A stretch of 64,000 bases of DNA from the NCBI GenBank assembly GCA_965209015.1, contig OZ242367.1, positions 566,785-630,784 on the forward strand. The letters run 5' to 3'. Shown here one piece after another: positions 8,532 to 26,200 of the stretch (positions are counted from its first letter, which is position 1; each line of letters opens with the position of its first letter). Source of the DNA: Rhodothermales bacterium. GTDB lineage: Bacteria > Bacteroidota > Rhodothermia > Rhodothermales > Bin80. A model generated the notes under the pieces. It was not told the origin of the DNA, ran no database searches, and saw only the letters and a list, made by a program, of their open reading frames with translations. Made by a program: the position numbers and the translations under genes.

Positions 8532-11500
8532 ATGGGGGGGGGTAGCATTTTGTCGTATCGCTCTTTCCTGATCCTTTTCTTGGTATTTCCAAGTTCGTTG
8601 TGGGCACAAGATACCACACCTCCTACGGTTTCCTCTGCGACGGTGGATGAGACCACCTTGGTGGTGAACTTTAATGAGGGCCTTGCTTCTGTCAGCGGCC
8701 TGACCAATTCTGCTTTCACGGTCGAGAAAACGTCCAGTGGAGGATCCGAAGAAGACCAAACGCTCATCGGCACTCCGACTGTCCGTGGGGAAACGGTGCC
8801 CCCCACATTAAGCAGCGCTGTGATCGCACCTGATATGGAAACGGTAAAGCTAATCTACACGGCTCCAACGGAGTCGGGTGCCAAGCTTCGGGATGCGGAG
8901 GGGAGTGATGTGGTGGATTCTATGGATCTGAAAGTGCTCAATATCTGTTCCCGGAGTGAGGTCGTGAGAGACGCGATTTTGGCTCAGATAACCGAGACTG
9001 TGTCTTGTGGTGAGGTCACGAGTAATGATTTAAAAACTATTACTGTTTTAGATCTCAGTCAGAGGGGTATTACTGAACTGAAGTCTGATGATTTCAATGG
9101 ACTTACCGGCTTAGATACCCTCTCTCTTAATAACAACGATCTTACGGATCTACATCGAAATCTGTTTGATGGACTCGAAAGCTTAGAGCAGCTCAATCTT
9201 AATGACAACGCTCTCACGGATCTACCTCGAGGTCTGTTGGATGGCCTCACCAACTTAGTGACTCTCAGACTTAATAACAACGCTCTCACGGATCTACCTC
9301 GAGGTCTGTTTGATGGCCTCCCCAACTTACGTGAAATCTTCCTTAGTAACAACGCTCTCACGGATCTAGATCCAGATCTGTTTGATGGACTCACTGGCTT
9401 ACATCGGCTCTCCCTTAGTAACAACTCTCTCACGCCAGATCCAGATCTGTTTGATGGACTCACCAGCTTATGGCTGCTTCACCTTGGTAACAACGCTCTC
9501 ACGGATCTACCTCGAGATCTATTTGATGGACTCACCAACTTACGTTGGCTCATTCTTAGTCAGAACTCTCTCACGGATCTAGATCCAGATCTGTTTGATG
9601 GACTCACCAGCTTAATTCGGATCTATCTTGAGGAGAACTCGCTCACGAGTCTACACGAAAATCTATTTGATGGACTCACCAACTTACGTGAACTCTACCT
9701 TAAAAAAAATGCTCTCACGGATCTAGATCCAGATCTATTTGATGGACTCAACTTACGTGAACTCTACCTTCATGAAAACGCTCTCACGAGTCTACACGAA
9801 GATCTGTTTAACGGACTCACCAGCTTAGAGCGGCTATGGCTTCATGAAAACGCTCTCACGGATCTACCCCAAGACCTGTTTGATGGACTCACCAGCTTAG
9901 AGTGGCTTCGACTTGAGTTCAACGCTTTCACGGATCTACACGAAGATCTGTTTGATGGACTCACCAGCTTAGGATTCATTGACCTTGACTTCAACGCTCT
10001 CACGGATCTACCTCCAGATCTGTTTGATGGACTCACCAGCTTAGAGAGCCTGACTCTCCAGAAAAACGCTCTCACGGATCTACCTCCAGATCTGTTTGAT
10101 GGACTCACCAGCTTATCGACTCTTCGGCTTGGGATCAACTCTCTCACGAGTCTACACGAAGATCTATTTGATGGACTCACCAACTTATCGGACCTCAATC
10201 TTCATACCAACAATCTCACGGGGCTGCATCCAGATCTGTTTGATGGACTCACCAGCTTAGATGAGCTCTACCTTTCTGGCAATGCTCTCACGGATCTACA
10301 TCCAGATCTGTTTGATGGACTCACCAGCTTAGATGAGCTCGAGCTTAGTTATAACAATCTCACGAGTCTACACCAAGATCTGTTTGATGGACTCACCAAC
10401 TTAGAGTGGCTTCGACTTGAGTGGAACGCTCTCACGGGGCTGCATCCAGATCTGTTTGATGATGTTGAGGCAAATCCATTTAATGTTAGCGTGGAGGGTA
10501 ATCCCCTTACCTGTGTCCCTGACGAAATACTTAATCAGCAGAATGTTATTATTATTCCCTCCAGTCTTCGCGTTACCTGCCCTGCTCCCTCGGTTACGTT
10601 AAGCACGAACCCTGATACCATTGGCGAGGAAGATGAGGCCACCGAGGTCACCGTAACTGGTACATTAAATGTCTATCAGGCTACCGACACGCCAGTGACG
10701 GTCTCTGTGGGACCGGGTACCGCGACCGCAGGGACTGACTTTTCCGTGGTCTCCGATTTTGTAATCAGCATTCCGGCGAACACTCTGTCTGCCACCGGGA
10801 TGTTCACGCTGGCACCTACTTCGGATACTGTGGATGAGCCAGATGAGACCGTGATGATCACAGGAACCAGCACGGTGGAGAATGTGACCGTTATCGGAAC
10901 CCGTCTCACGATCACCGATGACGAAGATGTACCGGCCGTCACGCTGGTACTGGATCCCTCCACGATTGATGAGAATGGAGGGAAGACGACGGTCACGGCT
11001 ACCTTGAACCGGCCTTCCAGTGCAGTGACGACAATCGCCGTGACAGTGCTTCCCGATGCACCCGCCATGGAGTCGGATTATCAACTGAGTGACAATCAAA
11101 TGCTGATCATTGCAGCAGGAGAGACGGAGAGTACGGGGCTCATAACCATCACGGCGGTGGACAACGAAGTAGATGCGCCGGACAAAGCGGTGCAGGTGCA
11201 AGGGAGGTCTACGAATGCGCAGGGCGTGACAGATCCAGAGGATGTGACACTCACGATCATCGACGATGATACGTCAACGGCGGCAGAGGCACCGACCGAG
11301 CTTCCGACCGTGTTTACTCTCTATGGGAACTATCCGAACCCGTTCAATCCGTCAACAAGGATCCAGTTTGATCTTCCCGAGAGGGCGCAGGTGACGGTGC
11401 AGATCTTAGATGTATTGGGACGTAAAGTAATGGAGTACCCTGCCCAAGCGTTTGATGCGGGTGCGAACCAAACTATTGAATTGAATGCGATTCAGCTTGG

Positions 11501-11585
11501 ATCGGGGACCTACCTATATCGAATGATTGCGGTAGGATCGGAGACCAAATATCAGGAGACGGGTCGCATGATACTGATGAAGTAG
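8532..11585 (+). CDS. Secreted LRR protein 1: signal peptide, SwmB-like domain, Cys-capped block of 20 LRRs, 2 Ig/Calx-beta-like domains, T9SS C-terminal domain
   Basis: ORF 8442..11585, probable start ATG 8532; SLWA|QD signal; 24-aa LxxLxLxxNxLTxLxxDLFDGLTx repeats; GNYPNPFNPSTRIQFDL...GRMILMK T9SS CTD. Confidence 0.88.
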   Translation: MGGGSILSYRSFLILFLVFPSSLWAQDTTPPTVSSATVDETTLVVNFNEGLASVSGLTNSAFTVEKTSSGGSEEDQTLIGTPTVRGETVPPTLSSAVIAPDMETVKLIYTAPTESGAKLRDAEGSDVVDSMDLKVLNICSRSEVVRDAILAQITETVSCGEVTSNDLKTITVLDLSQRGITELKSDDFNGLTGLDTLSLNNNDLTDLHRNLFDGLESLEQLNLNDNALTDLPRGLLDGLTNLVTLRLNNNALTDLPRGLFDGLPNLREIFLSNNALTDLDPDLFDGLTGLHRLSLSNNSLTPDPDLFDGLTSLWLLHLGNNALTDLPRDLFDGLTNLRWLILSQNSLTDLDPDLFDGLTSLIRIYLEENSLTSLHENLFDGLTNLRELYLKKNALTDLDPDLFDGLNLRELYLHENALTSLHEDLFNGLTSLERLWLHENALTDLPQDLFDGLTSLEWLRLEFNAFTDLHEDLFDGLTSLGFIDLDFNALTDLPPDLFDGLTSLESLTLQKNALTDLPPDLFDGLTSLSTLRLGINSLTSLHEDLFDGLTNLSDLNLHTNNLTGLHPDLFDGLTSLDELYLSGNALTDLHPDLFDGLTSLDELELSYNNLTSLHQDLFDGLTNLEWLRLEWNALTGLHPDLFDDVEANPFNVSVEGNPLTCVPDEILNQQNVIIIPSSLRVTCPAPSVTLSTNPDTIGEEDEATEVTVTGTLNVYQATDTPVTVSVGPGTATAGTDFSVVSDFVISIPANTLSATGMFTLAPTSDTVDEPDETVMITGTSTVENVTVIGTRLTITDDEDVPAVTLVLDPSTIDENGGKTTVTATLNRPSSAVTTIAVTVLPDAPAMESDYQLSDNQMLIIAAGETESTGLITITAVDNEVDAPDKAVQVQGRSTNAQGVTDPEDVTLTIIDDDTSTAAEAPTELPTVFTLYGNYPNPFNPSTRIQFDLPERAQVTVQILDVLGRKVMEYPAQAFDAGANQTIELNAIQLGSGTYLYRMIAVGSETKYQETGRMILMK

Positions 11586-11620
11586 GGTATCCAGAGTGGC
11601 TCACCTGCTCGGAATCCAAA

Positions 11621-11658
11621 GAAAGCATTCCAATACTCCTTGGTATTGGAGTGCTTTC
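11621..11658 (+). terminator. Conserved 16-bp stem-loop downstream of each T9SS LRR gene (also ~14113-14152 and 18612-18649)
   Basis: GAAAGCATTCCAATAC-TCCTTG-GTATTGGAGTGCTTTC with one G-U pair; no long U tract, so a terminator role is uncertain. Confidence 0.45.
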
Positions 11659-11785
11659 GTATTGAATAAGCGGAAGAGCTTTACGTGTGCTGTGGGAACA
11701 CCTATCTCTATTGAGTATTAAGAGTCTCTAGTCTAGTAAACCAATCTAAATCAGCGGGTAAATTTAATCTTAAAGCAGAGCCAAA

Positions 11786-14077
11786 ATGCGCATAGAAAGA
11801 CATCCAGAGCACTCCAAGTCTAAAACAGGAGGTTTTCTGGCAAGCACGAATTCATTGAAAAAATTGGGGGGGGGGGGTAGCATTTTGTCGTATCGCTTTT
11901 TCCTGATTCTCGTCTTGGTATTTCCAAGCTCGTTGTGGGCACAGGACACCACCCCTCCTACGGTTTCCTCTGCGACGGTGGATGGGACCGCCTTGGTGGT
12001 GAACCTTAATGAGGGCCTTGCTTCTGTTAGCGGCCTGACCAATTCTGTTTTCACGGTCAAGAAAACACCGGACGGAGGATCTGAAACGGAACAGATGCTC
12101 TCGGGCACCCCGACCGTCCGTGGGGAAACGGTGACCCTAACATTAGTCAATCCTGTGATCGCATCCGATAGGGGAACTGTAAAGCTAATCTACACGGCTC
12201 CAACGGAGTCGGGTGCCAAGCTTCGGGATGCGGCGGGGAGTGATGTGGTGGATTCTATGGATCCTAAAGTGCTCAATATCTGTTCCCGGAGTGAGGTCGT
12301 GAGAGACGCGATTTTGGCTCAGATAACCGAGACTGTGTCTTGTGGTGAGGTCACGAGTAATGATTTAAGAACTATTACTGTTTTAGATCTCAGTCAGAGG
12401 GGTATTACTGAACTGAAGTCTGATGATTTCAATGGACTCACCAACTTACTAGATCTTGACCTTAGGACCAACTCTCTCACGGATCTACATCAAGATCTGT
12501 TTGATGGACTCACTAACTTATCGAATCTTCAGCTTGATAACAACTCTCTCACGAGTCTACATCAAGATCTGTTTAAGGAACTCACTAAGTTAGTCTTTCT
12601 TGGCCTTGAGAACAACTCTCTCACAAGTCTACACGAAGAGTTGTTTGATGGACTCACCAGCTTAAATCAACTCTACCTTGATGACAACGCTCTCACGGAT
12701 CTACATCAAGATCTGTTTGAGGAACTCACTGAGTTAGGCGCTCTTGGCCTTAATAACAACTCTCTCACGGATCTACATCAAGATCTGTTTGATGGACTCA
12801 CTAGCTTATCGACTCTTAGGCTTGATAACAACGCTCTCACGAGTCTATACGAAAATCTGTTTGATGAACTCACCAGCTTACGTTTGCTCTTTATTGCTGA
12901 TAACGAGTTCACGGGGCTGCACGAAGAGTTGTTTCATGGACTCACCAGCTTGGAGAGTATAATTCTTTCTAGGAACTCTCTCACGGATCTACATCAAGAT
13001 CTGTTTGATGGACTCACCAGCTTAAATCAACTCTACCTTAATGACAACGCTCTCACGGATCTACACGAAGATCTGTTTGATGGACTTGAAAGCTTAAGTT
13101 TGCTCTCGCTTCATAACAACGCTCTCACGGATCTACCCGAAGATCTGTTTGATGGCCTCACCAAATTAGCGACTCTCAACCTTGATGGCAACGCTCTCAC
13201 GGATCTACCCGAAGATCTGTTTGATGGGCTCACCAGCTTACAATTTCTTATCCTTGCTGGTAACAATCTCACGAGTCTACATCCAGATCTGTTCGATGAT
13301 GTTGAGGCAAATCCATTTACTGTTAGCCTGGAAGAGAATGAACTCACCTGTGTCCCTGCGAAAATACTTAATCAGGAGAATGTCATTATCAATCCCGCCA
13401 GTCTTCGCGTTGCCTGTCCTGATCTTTCGGTTACGTTAAGTGTAAATCCCAGCACCATTGGAGAAGAAGATGAGGCCACCGAAGTCACCGTGACCGCTAC
13501 TCTGGAGGTCTTTCAAACGACTACCTTACCGGTGACGGTCTCTGTGGGATCGGGTACCGCGACCTCAGGAACGGACTTTACTGCGGTCTCCGATTTTACG
13601 ATCAGCATTCCGGCGGATACCCGGTCTAGCACCGGGACATTCACGCTGACACCTACTTCGGATACTGTGGATGAGCCAGATGAGACCGTGATGATCACAG
13701 GAACCAGCACGGTGGAGAATGTAACGGTCACCGGAACCAGTCTTACGATCATCGATGATGATACGTCAACGGCGGCACAGGCACCAACCGAGCTTCCGAC
13801 CGTGTTTACTCTCCATGGGAACTATCCGAACCCGTTCAATCCGTCAACAAGGATCCAGTTTGATCTTCCCGAGAGGGCGCAGGTGACGGTGCAGATCTTA
13901 GATGTATTGGGACGTAAAGTAATGGAGTACCCTGCCCAAGCGTTTGATGCGGGTGCGAACCAAACTATTGAATTGAATGCGATTCAGCTTGGATCGGGGA
14001 CCTACCTATATCAAATGATTGCGGTAGGATCGGAGACCAAATATCAGGAGACGGGTCGCATGATACTGATGAAGTAG
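11786..14077 (+). CDS. Secreted LRR protein 2: SwmB-like domain, 13 LRRs, Ig-like domain, T9SS CTD
   Basis: Same architecture as gene 1; start uncertain (ATG 11786, TTG 11864 or a downstream TTG). Confidence 0.88.
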   Translation: MRIERHPEHSKSKTGGFLASTNSLKKLGGGGSILSYRFFLILVLVFPSSLWAQDTTPPTVSSATVDGTALVVNLNEGLASVSGLTNSVFTVKKTPDGGSETEQMLSGTPTVRGETVTLTLVNPVIASDRGTVKLIYTAPTESGAKLRDAAGSDVVDSMDPKVLNICSRSEVVRDAILAQITETVSCGEVTSNDLRTITVLDLSQRGITELKSDDFNGLTNLLDLDLRTNSLTDLHQDLFDGLTNLSNLQLDNNSLTSLHQDLFKELTKLVFLGLENNSLTSLHEELFDGLTSLNQLYLDDNALTDLHQDLFEELTELGALGLNNNSLTDLHQDLFDGLTSLSTLRLDNNALTSLYENLFDELTSLRLLFIADNEFTGLHEELFHGLTSLESIILSRNSLTDLHQDLFDGLTSLNQLYLNDNALTDLHEDLFDGLESLSLLSLHNNALTDLPEDLFDGLTKLATLNLDGNALTDLPEDLFDGLTSLQFLILAGNNLTSLHPDLFDDVEANPFTVSLEENELTCVPAKILNQENVIINPASLRVACPDLSVTLSVNPSTIGEEDEATEVTVTATLEVFQTTTLPVTVSVGSGTATSGTDFTAVSDFTISIPADTRSSTGTFTLTPTSDTVDEPDETVMITGTSTVENVTVTGTSLTIIDDDTSTAAQAPTELPTVFTLHGNYPNPFNPSTRIQFDLPERAQVTVQILDVLGRKVMEYPAQAFDAGANQTIELNAIQLGSGTYLYQMIAVGSETKYQETGRMILMK

Positions 14078-15078
14078 GGTATCCAGAATGGCTCACCTGC
14101 TCAGAATTCAAAGAACGTATTCCAATACTCCTCTTGGTATGGGAGTGCTTTCGTATTGAATAAGCGGAAGAGCTTTACGTGTGCTGTGGGAACACCTATT
14201 TCTGCGGCAGGTGAGCGTCTCCTGTCTCAGCCACCATGCATGAGAAGGCCGACGTTTGACTCTACCTATTCAGCTTCGCAAAGGTTGAAGGTGTCTGGTA
14301 TCATCTACAGTACAGTCGTCCTACGTTAGGTTGAATGGAAAAAAGGAAGGAGATCATATGTTAATCCTGCAGCTTGCTATCCAAGTTACAGGCTCTGTCT
14401 CTGTCTTCCTGCGCAGCCTTGGGACTGCTTCACGGATCGTTATCTCTCTGCAACACGAATTTATATAAGGTTCATCCGTCAATTTGACTGTGAGATCAAC
14501 TAAACTTTGAATTCTGGGCATCTAGCTTCGCATCCTGAGTTTTCAGCTTCCTGATTTTTGCCCCGAAGCACCAAATTTGCGGTGTACGGTCCCCCTGGAC
14601 ACCCCCAATCCTAACCGGGCCCATCCAAATCCACCAATTGTAAACTGAGTTGAGGCAAAATAACATAGGGATACCTCCCAGAGCAGATTAGCCCCTCAGC
14701 CAAATGCAGGATGGAGCGTTCTCCAGATTTCCAGTCCATGGCGAATCCCACGATCGCCGATGCTATCCTGTACTGACTCGTGCATCCTTCCTATCGCATT
14801 GAACTCTCAGGCAAGTCCATGAGAAAACAACTCGTTTGAAAAACTAAGTTTCACACATATTCCTTCCATGAAACAAAAAACGAAATACATAATTTGATCG
14901 AAAATGCTCTAAAATAAATGCTTCTGTCCCAGTAACACCAATCTAAATTGGCTGGCAATTTCATATAAAATATGAGAGACAAAAATGTGCATAGAAATAC
15001 ATCCAGAGCACTCCAAGTCAAAAACAGGGGTGGCTCTGGCAAATACGAATTCATTGGAAAAATGGGGGGGGTAGCATT

Positions 15079-18000
15079 TTGTCGTATCGCTCTTTCCTGA
15101 TCCTTTTCTTGGTATTTCCAAGTTCGTTGTGGGCACAAGATACCACACCTCCTACGGTTTCCTCTGCGACGGTGGATGAGACCACCTTGGTGGTGAACTT
15201 TAATGAGGGCCTTGCTTCTGTCAGCGGCCTGACCAATTCTGCTTTCACGGTCAAGAAAACGTCCAGTGGAGGATCCGAAGAAGACCAAACGCTCATCGGC
15301 ACTCCGACTGTCCGTGGGGAAACGGTGCCCCCCACATTAAGCAGCGCTGTGATCGCACCTGATATGGAAACGGTAAAGGTAAGCTACACGGCTCCAACGG
15401 AGTCGGGTGCCAAGCTTCGGGATGCTGAGGGGAGTGATGTGGTGGATTCTATGGATCTGAAAGTGCTCAATATCTGTTCCCGGAGTGAGGTCGTGAGAGA
15501 CGCGATTTTGGCTCAGATAACCGAGACTGTGTCTTGTGGTGAGGTTACGAGTGATGATTTAAGAACTATTACTGTTTTAGATCTCAGTCAGAGGGGTATT
15601 ACTGAACTGAAGTCTGATGATTTCAATGGACTCACCGGCTTACAAACTCTTGACCTTGGGACCAACTCTCTCACGAGTCTACCTCAAGATCTGTTTGATG
15701 GACTCACCAACTTAAGAAACCTCAACCTTGATGGTAACTCTCTCACGGATCTACCTCAAGATCTGTTTGATGGACTCACTAGCTTATCGGCTCTTTGGCT
15801 TGATAACAACTCTCTCACGGATCTACATCAAGATCTGTTTGAGGAACTCGAAAATTTAAATATCTTATGGCTTAATAACAACGCTCTCACGGATCTACAC
15901 GAAGATCTGTTTGATGGACTCACCAACTTAAGAAACCTCAACCTTGATGGTAACGCTCTCACGGATCTACATCAAGATCTGTTTGATGGACTCACCAACT
16001 TAGGATCCATTGCCCTTCAGTTCAACGCTCTCACGGATCTACCTCGAGATCTGTTTGATGGACTCACCAGCCTACAGAACCTCTGGCTTAATAACAATTC
16101 TCTCACGGATCTATACGAAGATCTATTTGATGGACTCACCGGCTTAAGTTCGCTCTTTATTACTGATAACGAGTTCACGGGGCTGCACGAAGAGTTGTTT
16201 GATGGACTCACCAACTTAGAGCGGATAAATTTTTCTAGGAACGATCTCACGGATCTACACGAAGAGTTGTTTGATGGACTCACCAACTTAGAGGTTCTCA
16301 GACTTGATGACAACTCTCTCACGAGTCTACACGAAGATCTGTTTGATGGACTCACCAACTTAGAGCGGATAAGTCTTTCTAGGAACTCTCTCACGGATCT
16401 ACACGAAGAGTTGTTTGATGGACTCACCAACTTACGAGAGATTGACCTTGGGCGGAACTCTCTCACGAGTCTACATCAAGATCTGTTTAATGGACTCACC
16501 AGCTTAGAGCGGATAATTCTTTCTAGGAATTCTCTCACGGATCTACCCGAAGATCTGTTTGATGGATTCATCAGCTTAAGTTTGCTCTCGCTTCATAACA
16601 ACGCTCTCACGGATCTACCCGAAGATCTGTTTGATGGACTCATCAGCTTAAGTTTGCTCTCGCTTCAGAACAACGCTCTCATGGGTCTACATCCAAACCT
16701 GTTTGATGATGTTGAGGCAAATCCATTTAATGTTAGCGTGGAGGGTAATCCCCTTACCTGTGTCCCTTCCAGAATACTTAATCAGGAGAATGTTATTATC
16801 ATTCCATCCAGTCTTCTCGTTACCTGCCCTAATCCCTCGGTTACCTCTGCAACGGTGGATGGGATCACCGTGGAGGTGAATTTTAATGAGGACCTTGCTT
16901 CTGTCAGCGGCCTAACCAATTCTGCTTTCACGGTCAAGAAAACACCGGACGGAGGATCTGAAACGGAACAAATGCTCACCGGCACCCCGACCGTCAGTGG
17001 GAAAACGGTGACCCTCACATTAAGCAATCCGGTGATTGCATCTGATATGGGAACGGTAAAGGTAAGCTACATGGCTCCAACGGAGCCGGATGCCAAGCTT
17101 CGGGATGCAGAGGGGCATGCTGTGGTGAATTTTACAGATCTAAAAGTGCTCAATTTGAGGGGCGGAATCTGTCCTCGGACCGAGGTCGTGAGAGACGCGA
17201 TTTTGAATCAAATAACTGGGACTGAGTTTTGTTATGAGGTCACGAGTGATGATTTAGGCAATGTTAGGTCCTTAAATACTCTTAATAATAAGGGTATTAC
17301 TGAACTGAAGTCTGGTGATTTTAATGGACTCATCAATTTACTAATTCTTAACCTTGGTACCAACTCTTTCACAGGTCTACCCGAAGATCTGTTTGATGGA
17401 CTCACTAAGTTAACCTTACTTAACCTTGCTGGTAACAATCTCACGAGTCTACCCGAAGATCTGTTTGCTGGACTCACCAGCTTAAGTCGGCTCCTTATTT
17501 CTAATAACGAACTCACGGATCTACACGAAGACCTGTTTGATGGCCTCACCAGCTTAGCTCGGCTTACACTTCATGACAACGCTCTCACGGGTCTACCCGA
17601 AGATCTGTTTGATGGCCTCAACAACTTAGCGACTCTCAACCTTGATGGCAACGCTCTCACGGGTCTACCCGAAAATCTGTTTGATGCCTCAACAACTTAT
17701 GGGCTCACCGAAGATCTGTTTGATGGGCTCACCAGCTTACAATTTCTTATCCTTGCCGGTAACAATCTCACGAGTCTACATCCAGATCTGTTTGATGATG
17801 TTGAGGCAAATCCATTTACTGTTAGCCTGGAAGAGAATGAACTCACCTGTGTCCCGGCCAAAATACTTAATCAGGAGAATGTCATTATCAATCCCGCCAG
17901 TCTTCGCGTTGCCTGTCCTGATCTTTCGGTTACGTTAAGTGTAAATCCCAGCACCATTGGAGAAGAAGATGAGGCCACCGAAGTCACCGTGACCGCTACT

Positions 18001-18576: not shown

Positions 18577-18854
18577 GGTATCCAGAGTGGCTCACCTGCT
18601 CGGAATCCAAAGAAAGCATTCCAATACTCCTTGGTATGGGAGTGCTTTCGTATTGAATAAGCGGAAGAGCTTTACGTGTGCTGTGGGAGCACCTATTTCT
18701 ATTGAGTATTAAGAGTCTCTGGTCTACTAACACCAATCTAAATCAGCGGGCAAATTTAATCTTATAGCAGAGTCAAAATGCGCATAGAAAGACATCCAGA
18801 GCACTCCAAGTCTAAAACAGGAGGTTTTCTGGCAAGCACGAATTCATTGAAAAA

Positions 18855-20243
18855 ATGGGGGGGGGCATTTTGTCGTATCGCTCTTTCCTGATACTCGTCT
18901 TGGTATTTCCAAGTTCATTGTGGGCACAAGACACCACACCTCCTACTGCTTCCTCGGCAACGGTGGATGGGACCGCCTTGGTGGTGAACTTTAATGAGGA
19001 ACTCGCTTCTGTCAGCGGTCTGACCAATTCTGCCTTCACGGTTACGAAAACGTACAGCGGAGGATCCGAGGAAGCCCAAGTGCTCAGCGGCATTCCTACC
19101 GTTAGTGGGGAAACGGTAACACGCACATTAAGCAGTCCGGTGATCGCATCTGATATGGGAACGATAAAGCTAATCTACACGGCTCCAACGGAGCCGGGTG
19201 CCAAGCTTCGGGATGCAGAGGGGAGTGATGTGGTGGATTCTATGGATCCTAAAGTGCTCAATATCTGTTCCCGGAGTGAGGTCGTGAGAGACGCGATTTT
19301 GGCTCAGATAACCGAGACTGTGTCTTGTGGTGAGGTCACGAGTGATGATTTAAGTGAAATTACTATCTTAGATCTTGGAGGAAGAGATATTACTGAACTG
19401 AAGTCTGATGATTTCAGTGGACTCACCAACTTACAATATCTCTATCTTAATAATAACTCCCTCACGGATCTACCTCAAGATCTGTTTGATGGACTCACTC
19501 AGTTACTCTTTCTTGAACTTCATAACAACGCTCTCACGGATCTACATCAAGATCTGTTTGATGGACTAGAAAGCTTAATTTTGCTCTTCCTTCAGAACAA
19601 CGCTCTCACGAGTCTACATCAAGATCTGTTTGAGGAACTCACTAGCTTATCGAATCTTAACCTTCAGAACAACGCTCTCACGGATCTACCTCAAGATCTG
19701 TTTGATGGCCTCACCAACTTACGTTTGCTCTTTCTTAGTCAGAATGCTCTCACGGATCTACATCAAGATCTGTTTGATGGACCCACCAGCTTGGAGAGTA
19801 TAAATCTTGCTGGGAACTCTCTCACGGATCTACATCAAGATCTGTTTGATGGACTCACCAGCTTACAGAGCCTCTGGCTTAATAACAATTCTCTCACGGA
19901 TCTACACGAAGATCTATTTGATGGACTCACCAGCTTAAGTTTGCTCTCGCTTCAGAACAACGCTCTCATGGGTCTCCATCCAGACCTGTTTGATGATGTT
20001 CAGGCAAATCCATTTAATGTTAGCTTGGAGGGTAATCTTACCTGTGTCCCTGCCGAAATATTGAATCAAGAGGGTATCAGTATTTCACCTTCCACTCTTA
20101 TGGCTTGCCCTGCTCCTACGGTTACCTCTGCAACGGTGGATGGGACCACCTTAGTGGTGAACTTTGATGAGGGCCTTGCTTCTGTTAGCGGCCTGACCAA
20201 TTCTGCCTTCACGGTCAAGAAAACACCGGAGCGGAGGATCTGA
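18855..20243 (+). CDS. N-terminal fragment of LRR gene 4 (signal peptide, SwmB-like domain, 9 LRRs)
   Basis: MGGGILSYRSFLILVLVFPSSLWAQD signal; LRR block; ends at an indel in the second SwmB domain. Confidence 0.7.
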   Translation: MGGGILSYRSFLILVLVFPSSLWAQDTTPPTASSATVDGTALVVNFNEELASVSGLTNSAFTVTKTYSGGSEEAQVLSGIPTVSGETVTRTLSSPVIASDMGTIKLIYTAPTEPGAKLRDAEGSDVVDSMDPKVLNICSRSEVVRDAILAQITETVSCGEVTSDDLSEITILDLGGRDITELKSDDFSGLTNLQYLYLNNNSLTDLPQDLFDGLTQLLFLELHNNALTDLHQDLFDGLESLILLFLQNNALTSLHQDLFEELTSLSNLNLQNNALTDLPQDLFDGLTNLRLLFLSQNALTDLHQDLFDGPTSLESINLAGNSLTDLHQDLFDGLTSLQSLWLNNNSLTDLHEDLFDGLTSLSLLSLQNNALMGLHPDLFDDVQANPFNVSLEGNLTCVPAEILNQEGISISPSTLMACPAPTVTSATVDGTTLVVNFDEGLASVSGLTNSAFTVKKTPERRI

Positions 20244-23200
20244 AACGGAAGCCCAGAGTGCTCTCGCGGCACCCCGACTGTCAGTGGGGAAGATGGTGAC
20301 CCTCACATTAAGCAATCCTGTGATCGCATCTGATAGGGGAACGGTAAAGGTAAGCTACACGGCTCCAGCGGAGTCGGGTGCCAAGCTTCGGGATGCAGAG
20401 GGGAATAATGTGTTGGATTTTATGGATCTAAAAGTGCTCAATTTGAGGGGCGGAATCTGTTCTCGGACCGAGGCCGTGAGAGACGCGATTTTGGGTCAGA
20501 TAACTAGGACTGAGTTTTGTAATGAGGTCACGAGTGATGATTTAAGAAATATTGATGTTTTAGATCTCAAGCGGAGGGGTATTACTGAACTGAAGTCTGA
20601 TGATTTCAGTGGACTCACCAACTTAGGTAGAATCGTGCTTCTTGACAACGAGCTCACGAGTCTACATCCAGACCTGTTCGATGGACTCACTAGCTTAGTG
20701 ACTCTTCGGCTTGAGAACAACTCCCTCACGGATCTACCTCGAGATCTGTTTGACGGACTTACCAGCTTACGAACTCTTAGACTTGATGGCAACGCTCTTA
20801 CGGGTCTACATCAAGATCTGTTTGATGGACTCGAAAGCTTATCAGATCTTTGGCTTGATAACAACGCTCTCACGGATCTACATCAAGATCTGTTTGATGG
20901 ACTCACCAGCTTACGGTACCTCTTGCTTAATAAAAATTCTCTCACGGATCTACACGAAGATCTGTTTGACGGACTCACCAACTTAGAGAACCTGGTTCTC
21001 CAGAACAACGCTCTCACGAGTCTACACGAAAATCTGTTTGAGGAACTCAACAGCTTACGTTTGCTCTATATTTCTGATAACGAGCTCACGGGGCTGCACG
21101 AAAATCTGTTTGATGGACTCACCAACTTATCAGATCTTCGGCTTGATAACAACTCTCTCACGAGTCTGCACGAAGAGTTGTTTGATGGACTCACTAACTT
21201 AGAGACCCTCTATCTTAGGAACAACGCTCTCACGAGTCTACACGAAAATCTGTTTGAGGAACTCACCAGCTTACGTTGGCTCTTTATTTCTGATAACGAG
21301 CTCACGGGGCTGCACGAAGAGTTGTTTGATGGACTCACCAACTTATATCGGATAAGTCTTTCTAGGAACTCTCTCACGGATCTACATCGAAGATCTATTT
21401 GATGGACTCACCAACTTAGATCATTCTCTATCTTCAGGAACAACGCTCTCACGAGATCTACACGAAAATCTGTTTGATGAACTCATCAGCTTACGTTGGC
21501 TCTTTATTTCTGACAACGCTCTCACGGATCTACACGAAGATCTGTTTGATGGCCTCATGAACTTAGCGATCAACTCGAACTTAATAACAACGAGCTCACG
21601 AGTCTACATCCAGAGCTGTTTGATGATGTTGATGAGGCAAATCCATTTACTGTTAGCTTGGATGGTAATCCCCTTACCTGTGTCCCTGCCAAAATACTTG
21701 ATCAGGAGAATGTTATTATCATTCCCTCCAGTCTTCGCGTTACCTGCCCTAATCCCTCGGTTACGTTAAGTGTAAATCCCAGCACCATTGGAGAAGAGGA
21801 TGAGGCCACTGAAATAACGGTGACCGGTACATTAAATGTCTATCAGTCAACCGATACGCCGGTGACGGTCTCTGTGGGATCGGGTACCGCGACTGCAGGA
21901 ACGGACTTTACTGTGGTTTCCGATTTTACAATCAGCATTCCGGCGAATAGCCTGTCTGCCACCGGGACGTTCACGCTGACGCCCACTTCGGATACTGTGG
22001 ACGAGCCACATGAGGCCGTGATGATCACAGGAACCAGCACGGTGGAGAATGTAACGGTCACCGGAACCAGTCTCACGATCATGGACAATGATGATGCGCC
22101 GATCGTGACCCTGAATCTTTCAAGTTCCTCTATCGGCGAAAATGGAGGGAGTACCACCGTAACGGCAACCCTTAATCATCCCTCCAGCGAGGAGACGACG
22201 ATCACGATCTCGGTAGACCCAACCTTACCAGCCACCGAGTCGGATTATACGCTAAGTGGGACCACGCTCACGATTGCAGCGGGCGCAATCGAGAGTACGG
22301 AGATCGTGACAATCACGGCAGAGGTTAATGATGTGGTTGCCCCCGACAAGATCGTAACCGTGCGAGGATCGGCCTCAAATAATCAAGGGATCCGTGGTCC
22401 GACAGATGTGGAACTGACCATCACCGAAGCCACACCTACCCCTCCTACGGTTACCTCTGCAACGGTGGATGGGACCACCTTGGAGGTGAATTTTAATGAG
22501 GGCCTTGCTTCTGTCAGCGGCCTAACCAATTCTGCTTTCACGGTCAAGAAAATACCCAGCGGAGGATCCGAGGAAGCCCAAGTGCTCAGCGGCACGCCAA
22601 CCGTCAGTGGAAAGAAGGTGACCCTCACATTAAGCAATCCTGTGATCGAATCTGATATGGGAACGGTAAAGGTAAGCTACACGGCTCCAGCGGAGTCGGA
22701 TGCCAAGCTTCGGGATGCAGAGGGGCATGCCGTGGTGAATTTTACAGATCTAAAAGTGCTCAATTTGAGGGGCGGAATCTGTTCTCGGACCGACGCCGTG
22801 AGAGAGGCGATTTTGGCTCAGATAACCAGGACTAATCTTTGTAATGAGGTCACGGGTGATGATTTAAGTGAAATTACTACCTTAGATCTTGGAGGAGAAG
22901 ATATTACTGAACTGAAGTCTGGTGATTTTGATGGACTCACCAGCTTAGATTGGCTTATACTTGATAACAACGCTCTCACGGATCTACCTCGAGATCTGTT
23001 TGATGGACTCATCAGCTTAAGGCGGCTTGAACTTCAGAACAACTCTCTCACTAGTCTACATCAAGATCTGTTTGAGGGACCCATTAATTTAGGCTCTCTT
23101 GCTCTTAGTGGCAACTCTCTCACGGATCTACATCAAAATCTGTTTGAGGGACTCAGTAATTTAAGCACTCTTGGCCTTGCGCAAAACTCTCTCACGAGTC

Positions 23201-26200
23201 TGCACGAAGATCTGTTTAATGGACTCAACAACTTAAATGAACTCTACCTTAATAGCAACGATCTCACGAGTCTACACGAAGCTCTGTTTGAGGGACTCAA
23301 CAACTTAGATCTGATAACTCTTGGTTCGAACTCTCTCACGGATCTACACGAAGATCTGTTTAATGGACTCATCAACTTAGAGGATCTCTACCTTGGTAGC
23401 AACGAGCTCACGAGTCTACACGAAGAGCTATTTGATGGACTCACCAGCTTACGGGTGCTCAGCCTTGGTGACAACGATCTCACAGATCTACACGAAGAGC
23501 TATTTGATGAACTCACCAGCTTACGGGTGCTCAGCCTTGGTGAAAACGATCTCACGGATCTACACGAAGAGTTGTTTGATGGACTCACCAACTTACGAGA
23601 GATTTACCTTGGGAGAAACTCTCTCACGAGTCTACACCAAGATCTGTTTGATGGACTCGGAGACTTACAGAACCTCTGGCTTTTTAACAATGCTCTCACG
23701 GATCTACATCCAGATCTGTTTGATGGACTCACCAGCTTAGATGATCTCTACCTTTCTGACAATGCTCTCACGGATCTACACGAAGATCTGTTTGATGGAC
23801 TCGGAGACTTACAGAACCTCTGGCTTTTTAACAATGCTCTCACGGATCTACATCCAGATCTGTTTGAGGGACTCACCAGCTTAGATGATCTCCACCTTTC
23901 TTCCAATGCTCTCACGGATCTACACGAAGATCTGTTTGAGGAACTCACTAACTTATCGGATCTTAACCTTCGGAACAACGCTCTCACGGATCTACCTCAA
24001 GATCTGTTTGATGGCCTCAACAACTTAGATGAACTCGTGCTTAGAGACAACAAGCTCACGAGTCTACATCCAGACCTGTTTGATGATGTTGATGAGGCAA
24101 ATTCATTTACTGTTAGCTTGGAGCGTAATCCCCTTACCTGTGTCCCTGCCAAAATACTTGATCAGCAGAATATCACTATCAATCCTTCCAGTCTTCGCGT
24201 TACCTGCCCTGATCCCTCAATTACGTTAAGCACCAATCCTCAAACCATTGGGGAGGAAGATGAGGCCACCGAGGTCACCGTGACCGGTACATTAAATGTC
24301 TATCAGTCAACCGATACGCCGGTGACGGTCTCTGTGGGATCGGGCACCGCGACTGCAGGGACTGACTTTACTGTGGTTTCCGATTTTACAATCAGCATTC
24401 CGGCGAATAGCCTGTCTGCCACCGGGACATTCACGCTGACGCCCACTTCGGATACTGTGGACGAGCCGGATGAGACCGTGATGATCACCGGAACCAGCAC
24501 GGTGGAGAATGTAACGGTCACCGGAACCAGTCTCACGATCACCGATGATGACGACGCCCCGACGATCACGCTGACGCTGTCGGACAACCCCATCTCCGAA
24601 GATGGCGGGAGTACCACCGTAACCGCGACGCTCAGTCATGCCTCCACCGAGGAGACGACGATCACGATTTCCACCGTACCGGATTTGCCCGCGACCGCGG
24701 ACGATTACACGCTGAGTACCAATGCGACGCTCACGATTGCGGCAAACCAGACGACCAGTACGGGGGTGGTCACCATCACCGCCGTAGACAATGCCGTCGA
24801 TGAGCCCAACAAGACGGTGCAGGTGCAAGGCACAGCGACGAACGCGCAGGGGATCACCGATCCCGCGGAGGTCACACTCACGATCACCGATGACGAGGGG
24901 GCCCCGACGATCACGCTGACGCTGTCGGACAACCCCATCTCCGAAGATGGCGGGAGTACCACCGTAACCGCGACGCTCAGTCATGCCTCCACCGAGGAGA
25001 CGACGATCACGATTTCCACCGTACCGGATTTGCCCGCGACCGCGGACGATTACACGCTGAGTACCAATGCGACGCTCACGATTGCGGCAAACCAGACGAC
25101 CAGTACGGGGGTGGTCACCATCACCGCCGTAGACAATGCCGTCGATGAGCCCAACAAGACGGTGCAGGTGCAAGGCACAGCGACGAACGCGCAGGGGATC
25201 ACCGATCCCGCGGAGGTCACACTCACGATCACCGATGACGAGGGGGCCCCGACGATCACGCTGACGCTGTCGGACAACCCCATCTCCGAAGATGGCGGGA
25301 GTACCACCGTAACCGCGACGCTCAGTCATGCCTCCACCGAGGAGACGACGATCACGATTTCCACCGTACCGGATTTGCCCGCGACCGCGGACGATTACAC
25401 GCTGAGTACCAATGCGACGCTCACGATTGCGGCAAACCAGACGACCAGTACGGGGGTGGTCACCATCACCGCCGTAGACAATGCCGTCGATGAGCCCAAC
25501 AAGACGGTGCAGGTGCAAGGCACAGCGACGAACGCGCAGGGGATCACCGATCCCGCGGAGGTCACACTCACGATCACCGATGACGAGGGGGCCCCGACGA
25601 TCACGCTGACGCTGTCGGACAACCCCATCTCCGAAAGATGGCGGGAGTACCACCGTAACCGCGACGCTCAGTCATGCCTCCACCGAGGAGACGACGATCA
25701 CGATTTCCACCGTACCGGATTTGCCCGCGACCGCGGACGATTACACGCTGAGTACCAATGCGACGCTCACGATTGCGGCAAACCAGACGACCAGTACGGG
25801 GGTGGTCACCATCACCGCCGTAGACAATGCCGTCGATGAGCCCAACAAGACGGTGCAGGTGCAAGGCACAGCGACGAACGCGCAGGGGATCACCGATCCC
25901 GCGGAGGTCACACTCACGATCACCGATGACGAGGGGGCCCCGACGATCACGCTGACGCTGTCGGACAACCCCATCTCCGAAGATGGCGGGAGTACCACCG
26001 TAACCGCGACGCTCAGTCATGCCTCCACCGAGGAGACGACGATCACGATTTCCACCGTACCGGATTTGCCCGCGACCGCGGACGATTACACGCTGAGTAC
26101 CAATGCGACGCTCACGATTGCGGCAAACCAGACGACCAGTACGGGGGTGGTCACCATCACCGCCGTAGACAATGCCGTCGATGAGCCCAACAAGACGGTG

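What the first reader, a model, noticed from the sequence alone, without database searches (positions are those of the whole stretch)
8532..24200. VLR-like modular LRR receptor repertoire: ~90 72-bp cassettes with a constant DNA frame and a hypervariable binding face
Seen: seven LRR blocks in four tandem genes (about 19, 12, 15, 6, 8, 14 and 16 variable modules). Each block has a Cys N-cap (ICSRSEVVRDAIL...SCGEV) and a Cys C-cap (e.g. GNPLTCVP...C). Within each 72-bp module about 50 nt are nearly invariant even at synonymous sites (AACGCTCTCACGGATCTACACGAAGATCTGTTTGATGGACTCACCAGCTTA). The x positions of LxxLxLxxN vary freely and often carry W/Y/F/R/E. Known: those positions form the concave ligand-binding face, and jawless-vertebrate VLRs are built from 24-aa LRR cassettes with the same logic. 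Inference: a bacterial diversified surface-receptor family whose conserved flanks allow cassette shuffling by recombination or gene conversion, for host recognition or mimicry.
Basis: partly seen in the sequence, partly recalled or inferred. Interest (0 to 1): 0.85.

Follow-up and report, generated by a model that had tools for sequence, protein, structure and literature searches.

The report
Phase-variable hypervariable LRR surface protein family
An uncultured Rhodothermales bacterium carries a recently expanded family of secreted leucine-rich-repeat surface proteins whose repeat scaffold is almost constant in DNA, whose binding-face residues differ in nearly every repeat, and whose genes each carry a slippery run of G's after the start codon that probably switches them on and off.

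Summary
Seven capped LRR blocks (19, 12, 15, 6, 8, 13 and 16 modules, 89 in all) lie in three intact genes and a fourth that is frame-broken. Five codons per 72-nt module (positions 2, 3, 5, 7, 8) are saturated. The other 19 codons are nearly fixed, even at synonymous sites.

The window is part of a genome-wide family: 33 blocks and 257 modules, all inside long ORFs, with no silent orphan cassettes. This DNA framework occurs 216 times here, 29 times in the sister species and 0 times in 22 other genomes of the genus. The syntenic site in the sister species has no LRR genes.

Modules are shared between paralogs mostly one at a time, which indicates recombination within the constant frame. There is no DGR.

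A new point: each family gene carries a poly-G tract (G7 to G20) right after its start codon. As assembled, 6 of 11 copies are out of frame but otherwise intact.

My best reading is a T9SS-displayed adhesin or receptor repertoire. It would combine ON/OFF phase variation with concerted evolution and diversification of the concave face. That makes it Opa-like or fungal-NLR-like. It resembles VLRs only by analogy.

The parts
8532..11585 (+). Gene 1. Order of parts: leader, SWM-repeat-like Ig domain, N-cap, 19-module LRR block, C-cap, Calx-beta-like domains, T9SS C-terminal domain. There is an in-frame upstream ATG at 8442.
   Evidence: ORF and translation. Pfam LRR_8 E=3.5e-156, Por_Secre_tail 31.8 bits (cut-off 27), SWM_repeat 27.2 bits.
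8534..8542 (+). Poly-G tract G9 directly after the ATG of gene 1. In frame (ON) as assembled.
8946..9008 (+). N-cap of block 1 (CSRSEVVRDAILAQITETVSC)
9111..10472 (+). LRR block 1: 19 modules of 72 nt, two of them 69 nt long
10500..10583 (+). C-cap of block 1 (NPLTCVP...C)
11331..11540 (+). T9SS C-terminal sorting domain of gene 1
   Evidence: genome 578115-578324
11864..14077 (+). Gene 2, with a single LRR block. TTG lies directly before the tract and there is an in-frame ATG at 11786. It looks like a recombinant between the first and second blocks of a two-block paralog.
11866..11877 (+). Poly-G tract G12 of gene 2 (ON). Short-read contigs of three runs show a form 3 nt shorter.
   Evidence: table 4: depth 13 of 47.4 in X1, 10.9 of 10.9 in X2 and X3.
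12281..12343 (+). N-cap of block 2
12446..13309 (+). LRR block 2: 12 modules
13334..13420 (+). C-cap of block 2
13823..14032 (+). T9SS C-terminal sorting domain of gene 2
15062..18576 (+). Gene 3, with two LRR blocks. Its ATG is out of frame with the 1148-codon open frame because the tract is G8.
15064..15071 (+). Poly-G tract G8 of gene 3 (OFF as assembled)
15640..16719 (+). LRR block 3: 15 modules (N-cap 15475-15537, C-cap 16747-16830)
17338..17808 (+). LRR block 4: 6 modules, with a 39-nt partial module scar between 17650 and 17761 (N-cap 17170-17232, C-cap 17833-17919)
18322..18531 (+). T9SS C-terminal sorting domain of gene 3
18855..31441 (+). Gene 4, a giant multi-block gene. The assembly reads it in at least five frames: 18855-20243, 20284-21402, 21658-25839, 26412-27338, 27335-31441. 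Intact paralogs of 3662-4484 codons exist elsewhere in the genome.
18857..18865 (+). Poly-G tract G9 of gene 4 (ON for its first fragment)
19431..20006 (+). LRR block 5: 8 modules (N-cap 19266-19328, C-cap 20028-20111)
20623..21636 (+). LRR block 6: 13 modules, with several indels between 21389 and 21590 (N-cap 20458-20520, C-cap 21667-21750)
   Evidence: A short-read contig lacks one base at 21389.
22945..24096 (+). LRR block 7: 16 modules including a recent 144-bp duplication, m10-m11 against m12-m13 (N-cap 22780-22842, C-cap 24127-24210)
24532..29325 (+). Arrays of 345-348-bp repeats that encode the Calx-beta-like domains of gene 4. The first 8.1 copies (24532-27314) match at 98%.
6564..7247 (-). 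Transposase-like ORF (DUF772) on the left flank of the cluster
32133..33890 (-). DDE transposase ORF on the right flank of the cluster

Best explanation
The window holds four tandem members of a lineage-specific multigene family in an uncultured Rhodothermales bacterium. The order name comes from the record title of the closest relative.

Each protein has a Sec leader, an Ig-like domain, and one to three capped solenoids of 'typical' 24-residue LRRs. Calx-beta-like domains follow. In the shorter members a type IX secretion C-terminal domain ends the protein. I therefore infer that the proteins are exported and displayed on the cell surface as ligand-binding adhesins or receptors.

Three processes shape the repertoire.

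1. Recent expansion and concerted evolution. The 51-nt constant frame is identical by descent. It serves as a substrate for unequal crossing-over and short-tract gene conversion within and between paralogs. These events add, delete and transplant single modules.

2. Diversification of five beta-strand positions. Nearly every module ends up with its own cassette. I infer that selection on ligand binding drives most of this.

3. Slipped-strand phase variation. A poly-G tract directly after the start codon of every family gene switches each gene ON or OFF stochastically. Cells in a population would then display different subsets.

Shown here: the anatomy, the expansion, the mosaicism, the tract-length differences, and the out-of-frame copies that are otherwise intact.

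Inferred: surface display, selection as the driver, actual switching, and the nature of the ligand.
For: Architecture:
- LRR_8, SWM_repeat and Por_Secre_tail are above cut-off in genes 1-3.
- SprA and 52 Por_Secre_tail matches occur in the genome.
- All 7 blocks are capped.
- The AF2 model gives a regular solenoid with strands every 24 residues, covering module positions 24 and 1-7.

Scale of the family:
- 33 blocks and 257 modules, all in open frames of 401-4484 codons.
- 234 of 236 framework copies lie inside those ORFs. The other 2 lie in the broken part of gene 4. Three shuffled-pattern controls gave 0 hits.

Recent, lineage-specific expansion:
- The framework pattern occurs 216 times in G000, 29 times in sister species G002 and 0 times in the other 22 genomes of the genus.
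- The interval between dnaE and katG is 16 kb in G002 and holds an RND efflux system and restriction-modification genes but no LRR gene. Here it is 29.6 kb and bounded by transposase ORFs.
- Framework pS among the window's modules is 0.25. uvrC between G000 and G002 has pS 0.50.

Diversification:
- Variable codons have pN 0.67 against framework pS 0.25. The Jukes-Cantor ratio is about 5.3.
- There are 218 distinct 5-residue cassettes in 257 modules. None contains Pro or Met, and Cys is nearly absent (0.1% of variable positions genome-wide, none in the window). W is enriched 2.8-fold.
- At codon 7 the third base stays T in 61 of 86 modules while bases 1 and 2 vary.
- A protein from another metagenome contig (P0006, with P0009) has the same framework and 0 of 12 cassettes shared with G000.

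Recombination:
- 145 module pairs differ by at most 2 of 15 variable nucleotides, against about 4 expected from shuffles. 112 of them are between blocks. Of those, 70 are isolated, 21 are collinear and 21 are untestable.
- The same cassette sits in internal and in terminal frameworks (dv 0, df 16-18).
- Gene 2 matches block 21 at its 5' end and blocks 22 and 4 at its 3' end.
- Recent 144-bp and 216-bp tandem duplications are present.

Phase variation:
- 11 family genes carry G7, G8, G9 (five times), G10, G12, G13 and G20 at the same site.
- As assembled, 5 are in frame and 6 are out of frame. All 6 out-of-frame copies keep 1067-4140 open codons downstream.
- 4 of 5 distinct G002 leaders carry G6-G10 at the same site.
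- A variant of the gene 2 tract that is 3 nt shorter appears in short-read contigs of three runs. All three come from one sample, so this is one sample's evidence.
Against: - In the one clear G000-G002 ortholog pair (7 modules) the order is identical. The variable codons differ no more than the framework: 4/105 against 17/399, Fisher p = 1. Diversification is therefore not continuous in every gene. That whole 12-kb region is 93.7% identical against 85-86% elsewhere, so the pair may be young.
- Among 22 recent collinear module pairs the excess at variable codons is only about 2-fold (pN 0.082 against framework pS 0.040, p about 0.05). The pairs were also selected by identity.
- The synonymous third base of codon 4, inside the variable patch, is itself variable. 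Selection on protein alone does not explain this.
- The distribution of variable-site differences at low framework distance is bimodal. Old cassettes under a homogenised frame fit this as well as fast selection does. The two were not separated.
- Homopolymer lengths in a long-read assembly are error-prone, so the ON/OFF calls are provisional.
- No switching, expression, surface location or ligand was observed.
- The available reads were short unitigs from one study. They cannot show module order.
Confidence: 0.6

Rival explanations
1. Passive history. A recent burst of tandem and segmental duplication made the constant frame. The exposed beta-strand residues then drifted under relaxed constraint. 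The poly-G tracts are incidental, and the out-of-frame copies are simply young pseudogenes. On this reading there is no adaptive repertoire and no functional switching.
For: - The expansion is recent and lineage-specific.
- Framework pN/pS is also high: 0.67 in the window and about 1.1 in recent pairs.
- Gene 4 is frame-broken at several places.
- The ortholog pair shows no acceleration at variable codons.
Against: - Drift cannot exceed the synonymous rate, yet variable-codon dN is about 5 times framework dS.
- Pro and Met are wholly absent and Cys nearly absent from variable positions, so the positions are filtered.
- All 6 out-of-frame genes keep 1067-4140 open codons.
- The tract sits at the same site in two species, with lengths from 6 to 20.
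Confidence: 0.2
2. Targeted mutagenesis. A dedicated mechanism, such as a diversity-generating retroelement or another templated or local hypermutation process, rewrites the 22-nt variable patch and spares the frame.
For: - All three codon positions of codons 2, 3 and 5 are near saturation, and so is the embedded synonymous site of codon 4.
- Some pairs have 0 differences in 57 framework nt and 9 in 15 variable nt.
Against: - The only reverse transcriptase match in the genome is a frame-broken group II intron RT/maturase. No template/variable repeat pair lies near it.
- Variation is not restricted to one base.
- Codon 6, between variable codons, is fixed at its third base in 84 of 86 modules, and codon 7 keeps its third base in 61 of 86.
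- The ortholog pair keeps its cassettes.
- Missing Pro, Met and (almost entirely) Cys implies selection in any case.
Confidence: 0.07
3. True VLR-like or pilS-like programmed assembly. One or a few expression sites are rebuilt from a library of silent donor cassettes.
For: - Modular 24-residue cassettes with constant flanks.
- Single-module mosaicism between loci.
- Out-of-frame copies could act as donors.
Against: - No promoterless orphan cassettes exist: 234 of 236 framework copies are in long ORFs that begin with leaders, and the other 2 are in the broken gene.
- At least 11 genes have their own start codon and leader.
- No recombination-directing element was seen. No deaminase was found among the 10 neighbouring ORFs scanned, which is only part of the window.
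Confidence: 0.03
4. Assembly artefact. Repeats were collapsed or mis-polished and give a false impression of a constant frame with variable patches.
For: Several frameshifts cluster in repeat regions of gene 4. A short-read contig disagrees with the assembly at 21389.
Against: - The genome is a single 3.2-Mb contig rated 99.11% complete.
- About half of the short-read contig pieces laid on the region are at least 99% identical to it: 248 of 492 in X1.
- The independently assembled sister genome carries the same family and the same tract.
Confidence: 0.02

Closest known systems
Highly internally conserved repeats of fungal NLRs (Podospora NWD/HET-D/E WD40, also ANK and TPR)
   Same: Near-identical repeats at the DNA level. 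A few hypervariable positions per repeat that map to the binding surface. Repeat-number differences. Shuffling within and between paralogs, that is, concerted evolution plus diversifying selection (passages read in PMC4986451).
   Different: These are extracellular LRR domains in a bacterium, not cytoplasmic WD/ANK/TPR domains of STAND proteins. There is no RIP. Whole-module amino-acid identity here is below the 85% threshold used there, because 5 of 24 residues vary. The poly-G switch is an added feature.
Neisseria Opa adhesin family (recalled from general knowledge, no call)
   Same: About a dozen paralogs per genome. Each has a simple-sequence repeat in the leader-coding region that shifts the frame ON or OFF. 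Hypervariable ligand-binding segments are exchanged by recombination between loci.
   Different: Opa proteins are 8-stranded beta-barrels with a pentanucleotide repeat. Here the proteins are LRR solenoids secreted by T9SS and the repeat is a homopolymeric G tract. Switching has not been shown here.
Jawless-vertebrate variable lymphocyte receptors
   Same: 24-residue typical LRR modules, capped solenoid, diversity concentrated on concave beta-strand residues. VLR-A (2o6q) is a sequence match at E = 2.6e-29.
   Different: No somatic assembly from silent cassettes. The caps have two Cys each and give no Pfam LRRNT or LRRCT match at E <= 0.01. IGFALS, LRRC15, LGR4/5 and Toll are closer by sequence and fold. 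The C-terminal parts are different.
Plant NLR/R-gene LRR domains with hypervariable xxLxLxx residues and gene conversion in clusters
   Same: Tandem clusters, hypervariable solvent-exposed LRR residues, unequal crossing-over and gene conversion (only search listings and abstracts seen, e.g. PMC8226289 and PMC3113787).
   Different: Those are intracellular immune receptors of eukaryotes. Their repeats are not near-identical at synonymous sites and they have no phase variation.
'Eukaryotic-like' LRR proteins of host-associated bacteria (amoeba and sponge symbionts)
   Same: Expanded LRR repertoires of animal-type repeats in symbiont genomes (search listings and abstracts only, e.g. PMC8831229 and PMC6306507). 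3 of the 120 listed homologs carry a 7tm_1 GPCR domain, i.e. they are animal LGR-like.
   Different: Neither those abstracts nor my searches report a constant DNA frame with hypervariable cassettes, or poly-G switching of LRR genes. Host association of this organism was not established here.
IGFALS, LRRC15, LGR4/5, Toll, TLR3 (closest solved structures)
   Same: Typical-class 24-residue LRR solenoids. phmmer E from 5.8e-63 (IGFALS) to about 1e-41. Foldseek probability 1.00, TM (query) up to 0.63.
   Different: Those are animal proteins with four-Cys LRRNT/LRRCT caps and no internal DNA-level repeat identity. The resemblance is in repeat class only and is not evidence of shared function.

Membership tests
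Pfam LRR_8 / typical-class LRR superfamily | Repeated LxxLxLxxNxL motif matching PF13855 above the gathering score | tested here: met
   E = 3.5e-156, 5.5e-91, 1.9e-100, 1.1e-42, 4.4e-58 and 1.6e-105 for the six LRR-bearing ORFs
Type IX secretion cargo | C-terminal Por_Secre_tail domain (PF18962) above cut-off | tested here: met
   31.8, 32.6 and 31.2 bits (cut-off 27) in genes 1-3. Not found in the gene 4 fragments.
Type IX secretion cargo | T9SS machinery encoded in the same genome | tested here: met
   SprA_N at 270 bits in a 2631-codon frame. 52 Por_Secre_tail matches genome-wide. Only SprA was looked for.
Type IX secretion cargo | Demonstrated export and surface attachment | not testable with these tools
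   No proteomic or experimental data
VLR system | Incomplete expression gene assembled from flanking silent LRR cassettes | tested here: not met
   234 of 236 framework copies lie in ORFs of 401-4484 codons. The other 2 lie in the frame-broken part of gene 4.
VLR system | Animal-type LRRNT and LRRCT caps | tested here: not met
   No PF01462 or PF01463 reported at E <= 0.01. The caps have two Cys each. Cap regions of the model have pLDDT below 50.
VLR system | 24-residue variable modules with diversity on the concave face | tested here: met
VLR system | AID/APOBEC-type deaminase that drives assembly | not tested
   No genome-wide deaminase search was run
Simple-sequence-repeat contingency (phase-variable) locus | Homopolymeric tract of about 7 or more bases in the 5' coding region | tested here: met
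   G7-G20 directly after ATG or TTG in 11 family genes
Simple-sequence-repeat contingency (phase-variable) locus | Tract length differs between copies, strains or cells | tested here: met
   Lengths of 7, 8, 9, 10, 12, 13 and 20 among paralogs. G6-G10 in G002. Within a sample there is only a hint: G12 against a form 3 nt shorter in gene 2.
Simple-sequence-repeat contingency (phase-variable) locus | Out-of-frame copies are otherwise intact | tested here: met
   6 of 11 are out of frame, each followed by 1067-4140 open codons
Simple-sequence-repeat contingency (phase-variable) locus | Observed reversible ON/OFF switching | not testable with these tools
   Only short unitigs from one study were available
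Diversity-generating retroelement target | DGR-type reverse transcriptase with a template/variable repeat pair and adenine-specific changes | tested here: not met
   The only RVT_1 match is a broken group II intron RT/maturase (TIGR04416, 238 and 126 bits against a cut-off of 300). No TR/VR pair in 14 kb around it. All four bases vary.
High-internal-conservation repeats with hypervariable sites (fungal NLR type) | Repeats at least 85% identical to each other over at least 100 residues | tested here: not met
   TRF gives 70-78% nucleotide matches per array. Only the 57 framework nucleotides reach about 81% mean pairwise identity in the window.
High-internal-conservation repeats with hypervariable sites (fungal NLR type) | A few hypervariable positions per repeat on the binding surface, plus repeat shuffling between paralogs | tested here: met

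The most novel reading that the evidence does not exclude
A bacterial anticipatory surface-receptor repertoire. A dozen or more independently phase-variable genes would be combined with module-level cassette exchange across a constant 51-nt frame. Each cell lineage would then display a different set of LRR binding faces. New cassettes would arise through a local multi-nucleotide replacement process rather than point mutation plus selection. Two observations hint at that process: the hypervariable synonymous site inside the patch, and the all-or-nothing distribution of cassette differences. This would be a prokaryotic functional counterpart of VLR-type diversity, built from Opa-like switching and concerted evolution.
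Probability: 0.12. Interest if true: 0.85.

Novelty: new variant of a known kind. Interest (0 to 1): 0.62.

Why it matters
Large 'eukaryotic-like' LRR repertoires are a recurring and unexplained feature of host-associated bacteria. This family offers a concrete, testable model of how such a repertoire is generated and deployed.

- The recombinogenic constant frame is there, with more than 200 different binding-face cassettes.
- Each gene has its own stochastic switch.
- If the poly-G tracts do switch, this would put contingency-locus phase variation in an uncultured Rhodothermales lineage and in T9SS cargo. My library searches found no paper that combines LRR proteins with homopolymeric phase variation.
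- The family is also a natural library of capped LRR scaffolds with a fixed frame and variable faces, which is of interest for binder engineering.

Tried and rejected
DGR or targeted retro-mutagenesis. A genome-wide RVT_1 search found only a broken group II intron RT at G000:309384-310111, next to a divergent LRR gene. There is no template/variable repeat pair in the surrounding 14 kb. Rejected.

Read-level test of module order and of the frameshifts. All four are kept as short de Bruijn contigs. The many 'joints' have short sides (20-54 nt) and depths far above the locus, and some carry other cassettes between frame segments. They may come from paralogs or from other organisms, so they say nothing about allelic module order. 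Uncovered parts are not interpreted.

Other strains. Two scans of metagenome contigs, one with the poly-G plus leader pattern and one with a framework pattern, found 0 matches. The exact leader pattern occurs only in G000 among 24 genomes of the genus. Cross-strain comparison was therefore not possible. The only cross-species ortholog found was block 17 against L022.

Structure. The single-sequence AF2 model has mean pLDDT 70.5. The other four models scored 38-45, and the cap regions are below 50, so the caps and their disulfides could not be assessed. A second job with an alignment was not run. No complex prediction was attempted because no partner is known.

Tree-based dN/dS (codeml or FUBAR type) was not run. 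The modules are 72 nt long and recombining, so I used pairwise Nei-Gojobori counts instead.

A codon-bias explanation for the constant frame is rejected, because different Leu positions are fixed for different codons.

Literature. Three searches for LRR plus phase variation or homopolymeric tracts returned no relevant paper. The library lacks most subscription journals.

Full report
WHAT IS THERE.

The window is G000:C1:566785-630784 of a single-contig 3,214,135-bp genome rated 99.11% complete. Between 8.4 and 31.4 kb lie three intact ORFs on the + strand: 8442-11585 (1047 aa), 11786-14077 (763 aa) and 15079-18576 (1165 aa). A fourth gene follows, which the assembly reads in at least five frames (18855-20243, 20284-21402, 21658-25839, 26412-27338, 27335-31441).

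Pfam finds LRR_8 in all six LRR-bearing pieces, with E from 1e-42 to 3.5e-156. An N-terminal SWM_repeat (Ig-like) domain is present. In genes 1-3 a Por_Secre_tail domain scores above its cut-off. The genome encodes SprA and has 52 Por_Secre_tail matches. I therefore read these proteins as cargo of the type IX secretion system. This is an inference from domain content. Export itself was not shown.

The cluster is flanked by transposase-like ORFs at 6564-7247 and 32133-33890, with dnaE and katG beyond them.

THE OBSERVATION.

Tandem Repeats Finder reports seven 72-bp arrays. A register-aware scan gives 89 modules in blocks of 19, 12, 15, 6, 8, 13 and 16, of which 86 are regular. All seven blocks begin with a two-Cys N-cap (C[SP]R[ST]..VR[DE]AIL...C) and end with a two-Cys C-cap (..LTCVP...C).

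Amino-acid entropy is 2.95-3.68 bits at positions 2, 3, 5, 7 and 8. It is 0-0.7 bits at the framework Leu, Asn, Thr and Phe positions. Nucleotide entropy in variable codons 2, 3 and 5 is 1.77-1.96 bits at every codon position, and it is lower in codons 7 and 8.

Framework third positions are almost fixed, and different Leu positions are fixed for different codons (TTA, CTT, CTC, CTA, CTG). That pattern means identity by descent or homogenisation, not codon bias. The corrections are listed under the observation check.

IT IS A GENOME-WIDE, LINEAGE-SPECIFIC FAMILY.

The 51-nt framework, allowing up to 14 mismatches, occurs 224 times in the genome. A protein-register scan finds 33 blocks with 257 modules. 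All lie in open frames of 401-4484 codons.

Of 236 framework copies with up to 16 mismatches, 234 lie in those frames and 2 lie in the frame-broken part of gene 4. Shuffled patterns give 0. There is no library of silent orphan cassettes.

All 31 genomes searched among the relatives have LRR proteins that match gene 2. This particular DNA framework, however, occurs 216 times in G000, 29 times in the sister species G002 and 0 times in the other 22 genomes of the genus. The record of the G002-like genome is titled 'MAG: Rhodothermales bacterium'.

G000 and G002 are 85-86% identical in uvrC, dnaE and katG, and uvrC has pS = 0.50. In G002 the interval between dnaE and katG is 16 kb. It holds an RND efflux system, a transposase and restriction-modification genes, but no LRR gene. 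The window's cluster therefore arose, or was inserted, after the two species split.

Other species of the genus have LRR arrays with their own internally homogeneous frameworks that use different synonymous codons.

RATES.

Among the 86 window modules the variable codons have pS 0.62 and pN 0.67, which is near saturation. The framework has pS 0.25 and pN 0.17. After Jukes-Cantor correction, variable-codon dN is about 5.3 times framework dS.

Framework pS in the window (0.25) is half the G000-G002 uvrC value. The modules therefore coalesce, or were last homogenised, after speciation.

The 257 modules carry 218 distinct five-residue cassettes. Pro and Met never occur at variable positions and Cys almost never. 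Trp is 2.8-fold enriched, and 28 of 86 residues at position 5 are aromatic. The positions are thus filtered by selection and not merely degenerate. At codon 7 the third base remains T in 61 of 86 modules while the first two bases vary, as expected if amino-acid change is what is favoured.

Three results count against a simple 'fast positive selection' reading.

- The synonymous third base of codon 4, inside the patch, is itself variable (1.46 bits). Among pairs with near-identical frames it differs in about half.
- Cassette differences are bimodal at low framework distance: either 3 or fewer, or 8-12 of 15. Old cassettes under a continually homogenised frame fit that distribution as well.
- In 22 recent collinear module pairs the excess is only about 2-fold, with p about 0.05.

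In the one clear G000-G002 ortholog (block 17 against L022, 7 modules) the order is identical. The variable codons differ by 4/105 against 17/399 in the frame. That whole 12.1-kb region is 93.7% identical, well above the genome background, so it may be a recent exchange.

I conclude that diversification is real but episodic. I could not separate selection after duplication from homogenisation of the frame around old cassettes.

RECOMBINATION.

145 module pairs differ by at most 2 of 15 variable nucleotides, against about 4 expected from column shuffles. 112 of them are between blocks. Of these 112, only 21 have a neighbouring module that is also shared. 70 are isolated and 21 are not testable.

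Each block is a patchwork of best donors. Block 2, for example, matches block 21 for modules 0-6, then blocks 5, 3, 22 and 4. The modules of block 5 match five different places.

The same cassette occurs in internal and in terminal frameworks, with 0 variable and 16-18 framework differences. This places breakpoints between cassette and frame.

Gene 2 looks like a deletion product. It would have arisen by recombination between a module of the first block and a module of the second block of a two-block paralog (inference).

Tandem duplications of two and three modules at 96-99% identity are present in blocks 7 and 29.

A protein from another metagenome contig, P0006 together with P0009, has the same framework at the protein level but shares 0 of 12 cassettes with G000.

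NO DEDICATED MUTATOR FOUND.

The only RVT_1 match in the genome is a frame-broken group II intron RT/maturase. No template/variable repeat pair lies nearby.

THE NEW FINDING: POLY-G TRACTS.

Each of the four genes in the window has a run of G directly after its start codon and before the hydrophobic core of the leader: G9 (8534-8542), G12 (11866-11877), G8 (15064-15071) and G9 (18857-18865).

Genome-wide, 11 family genes have the tract at the same site. The lengths are 7, 8, 9 (five times), 10, 12, 13 and 20. I read each one from its ATG or TTG to the conserved ...SSLWAQ of the leader. As assembled, 5 are in frame and 6 are out of frame. All 6 out-of-frame genes keep 1067-4140 open codons downstream. 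That pattern is expected of reversible switches and is not expected of decaying pseudogenes.

In G002, 4 of 5 distinct family leaders carry G6-G10 at the same place. The tract is therefore ancestral to both species and its length is labile.

Short-read contigs from three runs of one sample show a form of the gene 2 tract that is 3 nt shorter, otherwise matching the locus without mismatch (table 4 and record 17).

Two caveats apply. Homopolymer lengths in long-read assemblies are unreliable, and no switching was observed.

STRUCTURE AND RELATIVES.

A single-sequence AF2 model of gene 2 residues 150-560 has pLDDT 70.5. It is a regular solenoid with a strand every 24 residues that covers module positions 24 and 1-7. 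The caps are not modelled with confidence.

The top Foldseek matches are Toll5A, LGR4, TLR3, LRIG1, LINGO-1 and LRRTM2. By sequence the nearest solved proteins are IGFALS (E = 5.8e-63), LRRC15, designed LRRs, Toll and LGR4/5. VLR-A appears at E = 2.6e-29, about rank 45. The repeats therefore belong to the animal-like 'typical' class, and VLRs are not a special relative.

COMPARISON WITH WHAT IS KNOWN.

In evolutionary mode the closest described case is the family of highly internally conserved WD, ANK and TPR repeats of fungal NLRs. These combine concerted evolution with diversifying selection at a few surface positions (PMC4986451, passages read).

In deployment the closest case I can recall (no call) is the Neisseria Opa family. 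It has a dozen paralogs, each switched by a repeat in the leader-coding region, with recombining hypervariable segments.

Expanded LRR repertoires in symbionts are known (abstracts only). My searches found no report of homopolymeric phase variation of LRR genes.

I file the finding as a new variant of known kinds and not as a VLR-like system.

VERDICT.

The best explanation, at confidence 0.6, is a T9SS-displayed LRR adhesin or receptor repertoire. It would be phase-variable, would evolve by concerted evolution, and would diversify on its concave face. Interest 0.62.

Noticed in passing
window 847-4782 (-): The DNA polymerase III alpha subunit gene carries an intein. Pfam Intein_splicing matches residues 760-905 at E = 2.5e-14.
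   Followed up: no
window 24532-27314 (+): There are 8.1 copies of a 345-bp repeat at 98% identity, encoding Calx-beta-like domains of gene 4. The reading frame breaks near 25840, 26400 and 27335. More diverged copies continue to 29325.
   Followed up: partly
genome G000:C1 1892702, 2052120, 2667762; also 540423 and 82682: Other gene families also have poly-G tracts (G7-G10) directly after an ATG, in shared sequence contexts. Start-proximal poly-G switching may be used more widely in this genome. 166 G/C runs of 7 or more bases were counted.
   Followed up: no
G000:C1:309384-310111 (locus L021 7142-8211): A frame-broken group II intron reverse transcriptase/maturase lies next to an adenine methyltransferase-like ORF and a divergent 713-aa LRR protein.
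   Followed up: partly
G000:C1:3044000-3064000 against L022 (G002:C1:2808000-2822000): A 12.1-kb stretch that includes a 2529-codon LRR gene is 93.7% identical between the two species. uvrC, dnaE and katG are 85-86% identical. This could be recent exchange between the species or unusual constraint.
   Followed up: no
proteins P0010 and P0012 (one search hits): The N-cap motif IC.R[ST]..V..AI...C recurs at the start of more distant metagenomic LRR proteins (43-46% identity). The two-Cys cap may define a wider bacterial LRR cap family.
   Followed up: no
window 27335-31441 (+): The last 1368-aa piece of gene 4 ends in about 600 residues with no Pfam match at E <= 0.01 apart from a weak DUF3426 hit, and it has no T9SS C-terminal domain. 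Its anchoring mode is unknown.
   Followed up: no
window 17650-17761 and 9399-9470, 9684-9752: In-frame irregular modules are present: one 39-nt partial module and two 69-nt modules. They look like scars of recombination within the frame.
   Followed up: no
genome 149293, 364052, 965534, 3186789 (leaders): A second short C run (C3-C4, and C5 in G002) lies inside the leader-coding region of some paralogs. It also changes the frame relative to the ATG.
   Followed up: partly
window 55651-57126 (+): A Fic/DOC-domain protein of 491 aa lies next to a TonB-dependent receptor and a SNF2-family helicase.
   Followed up: no
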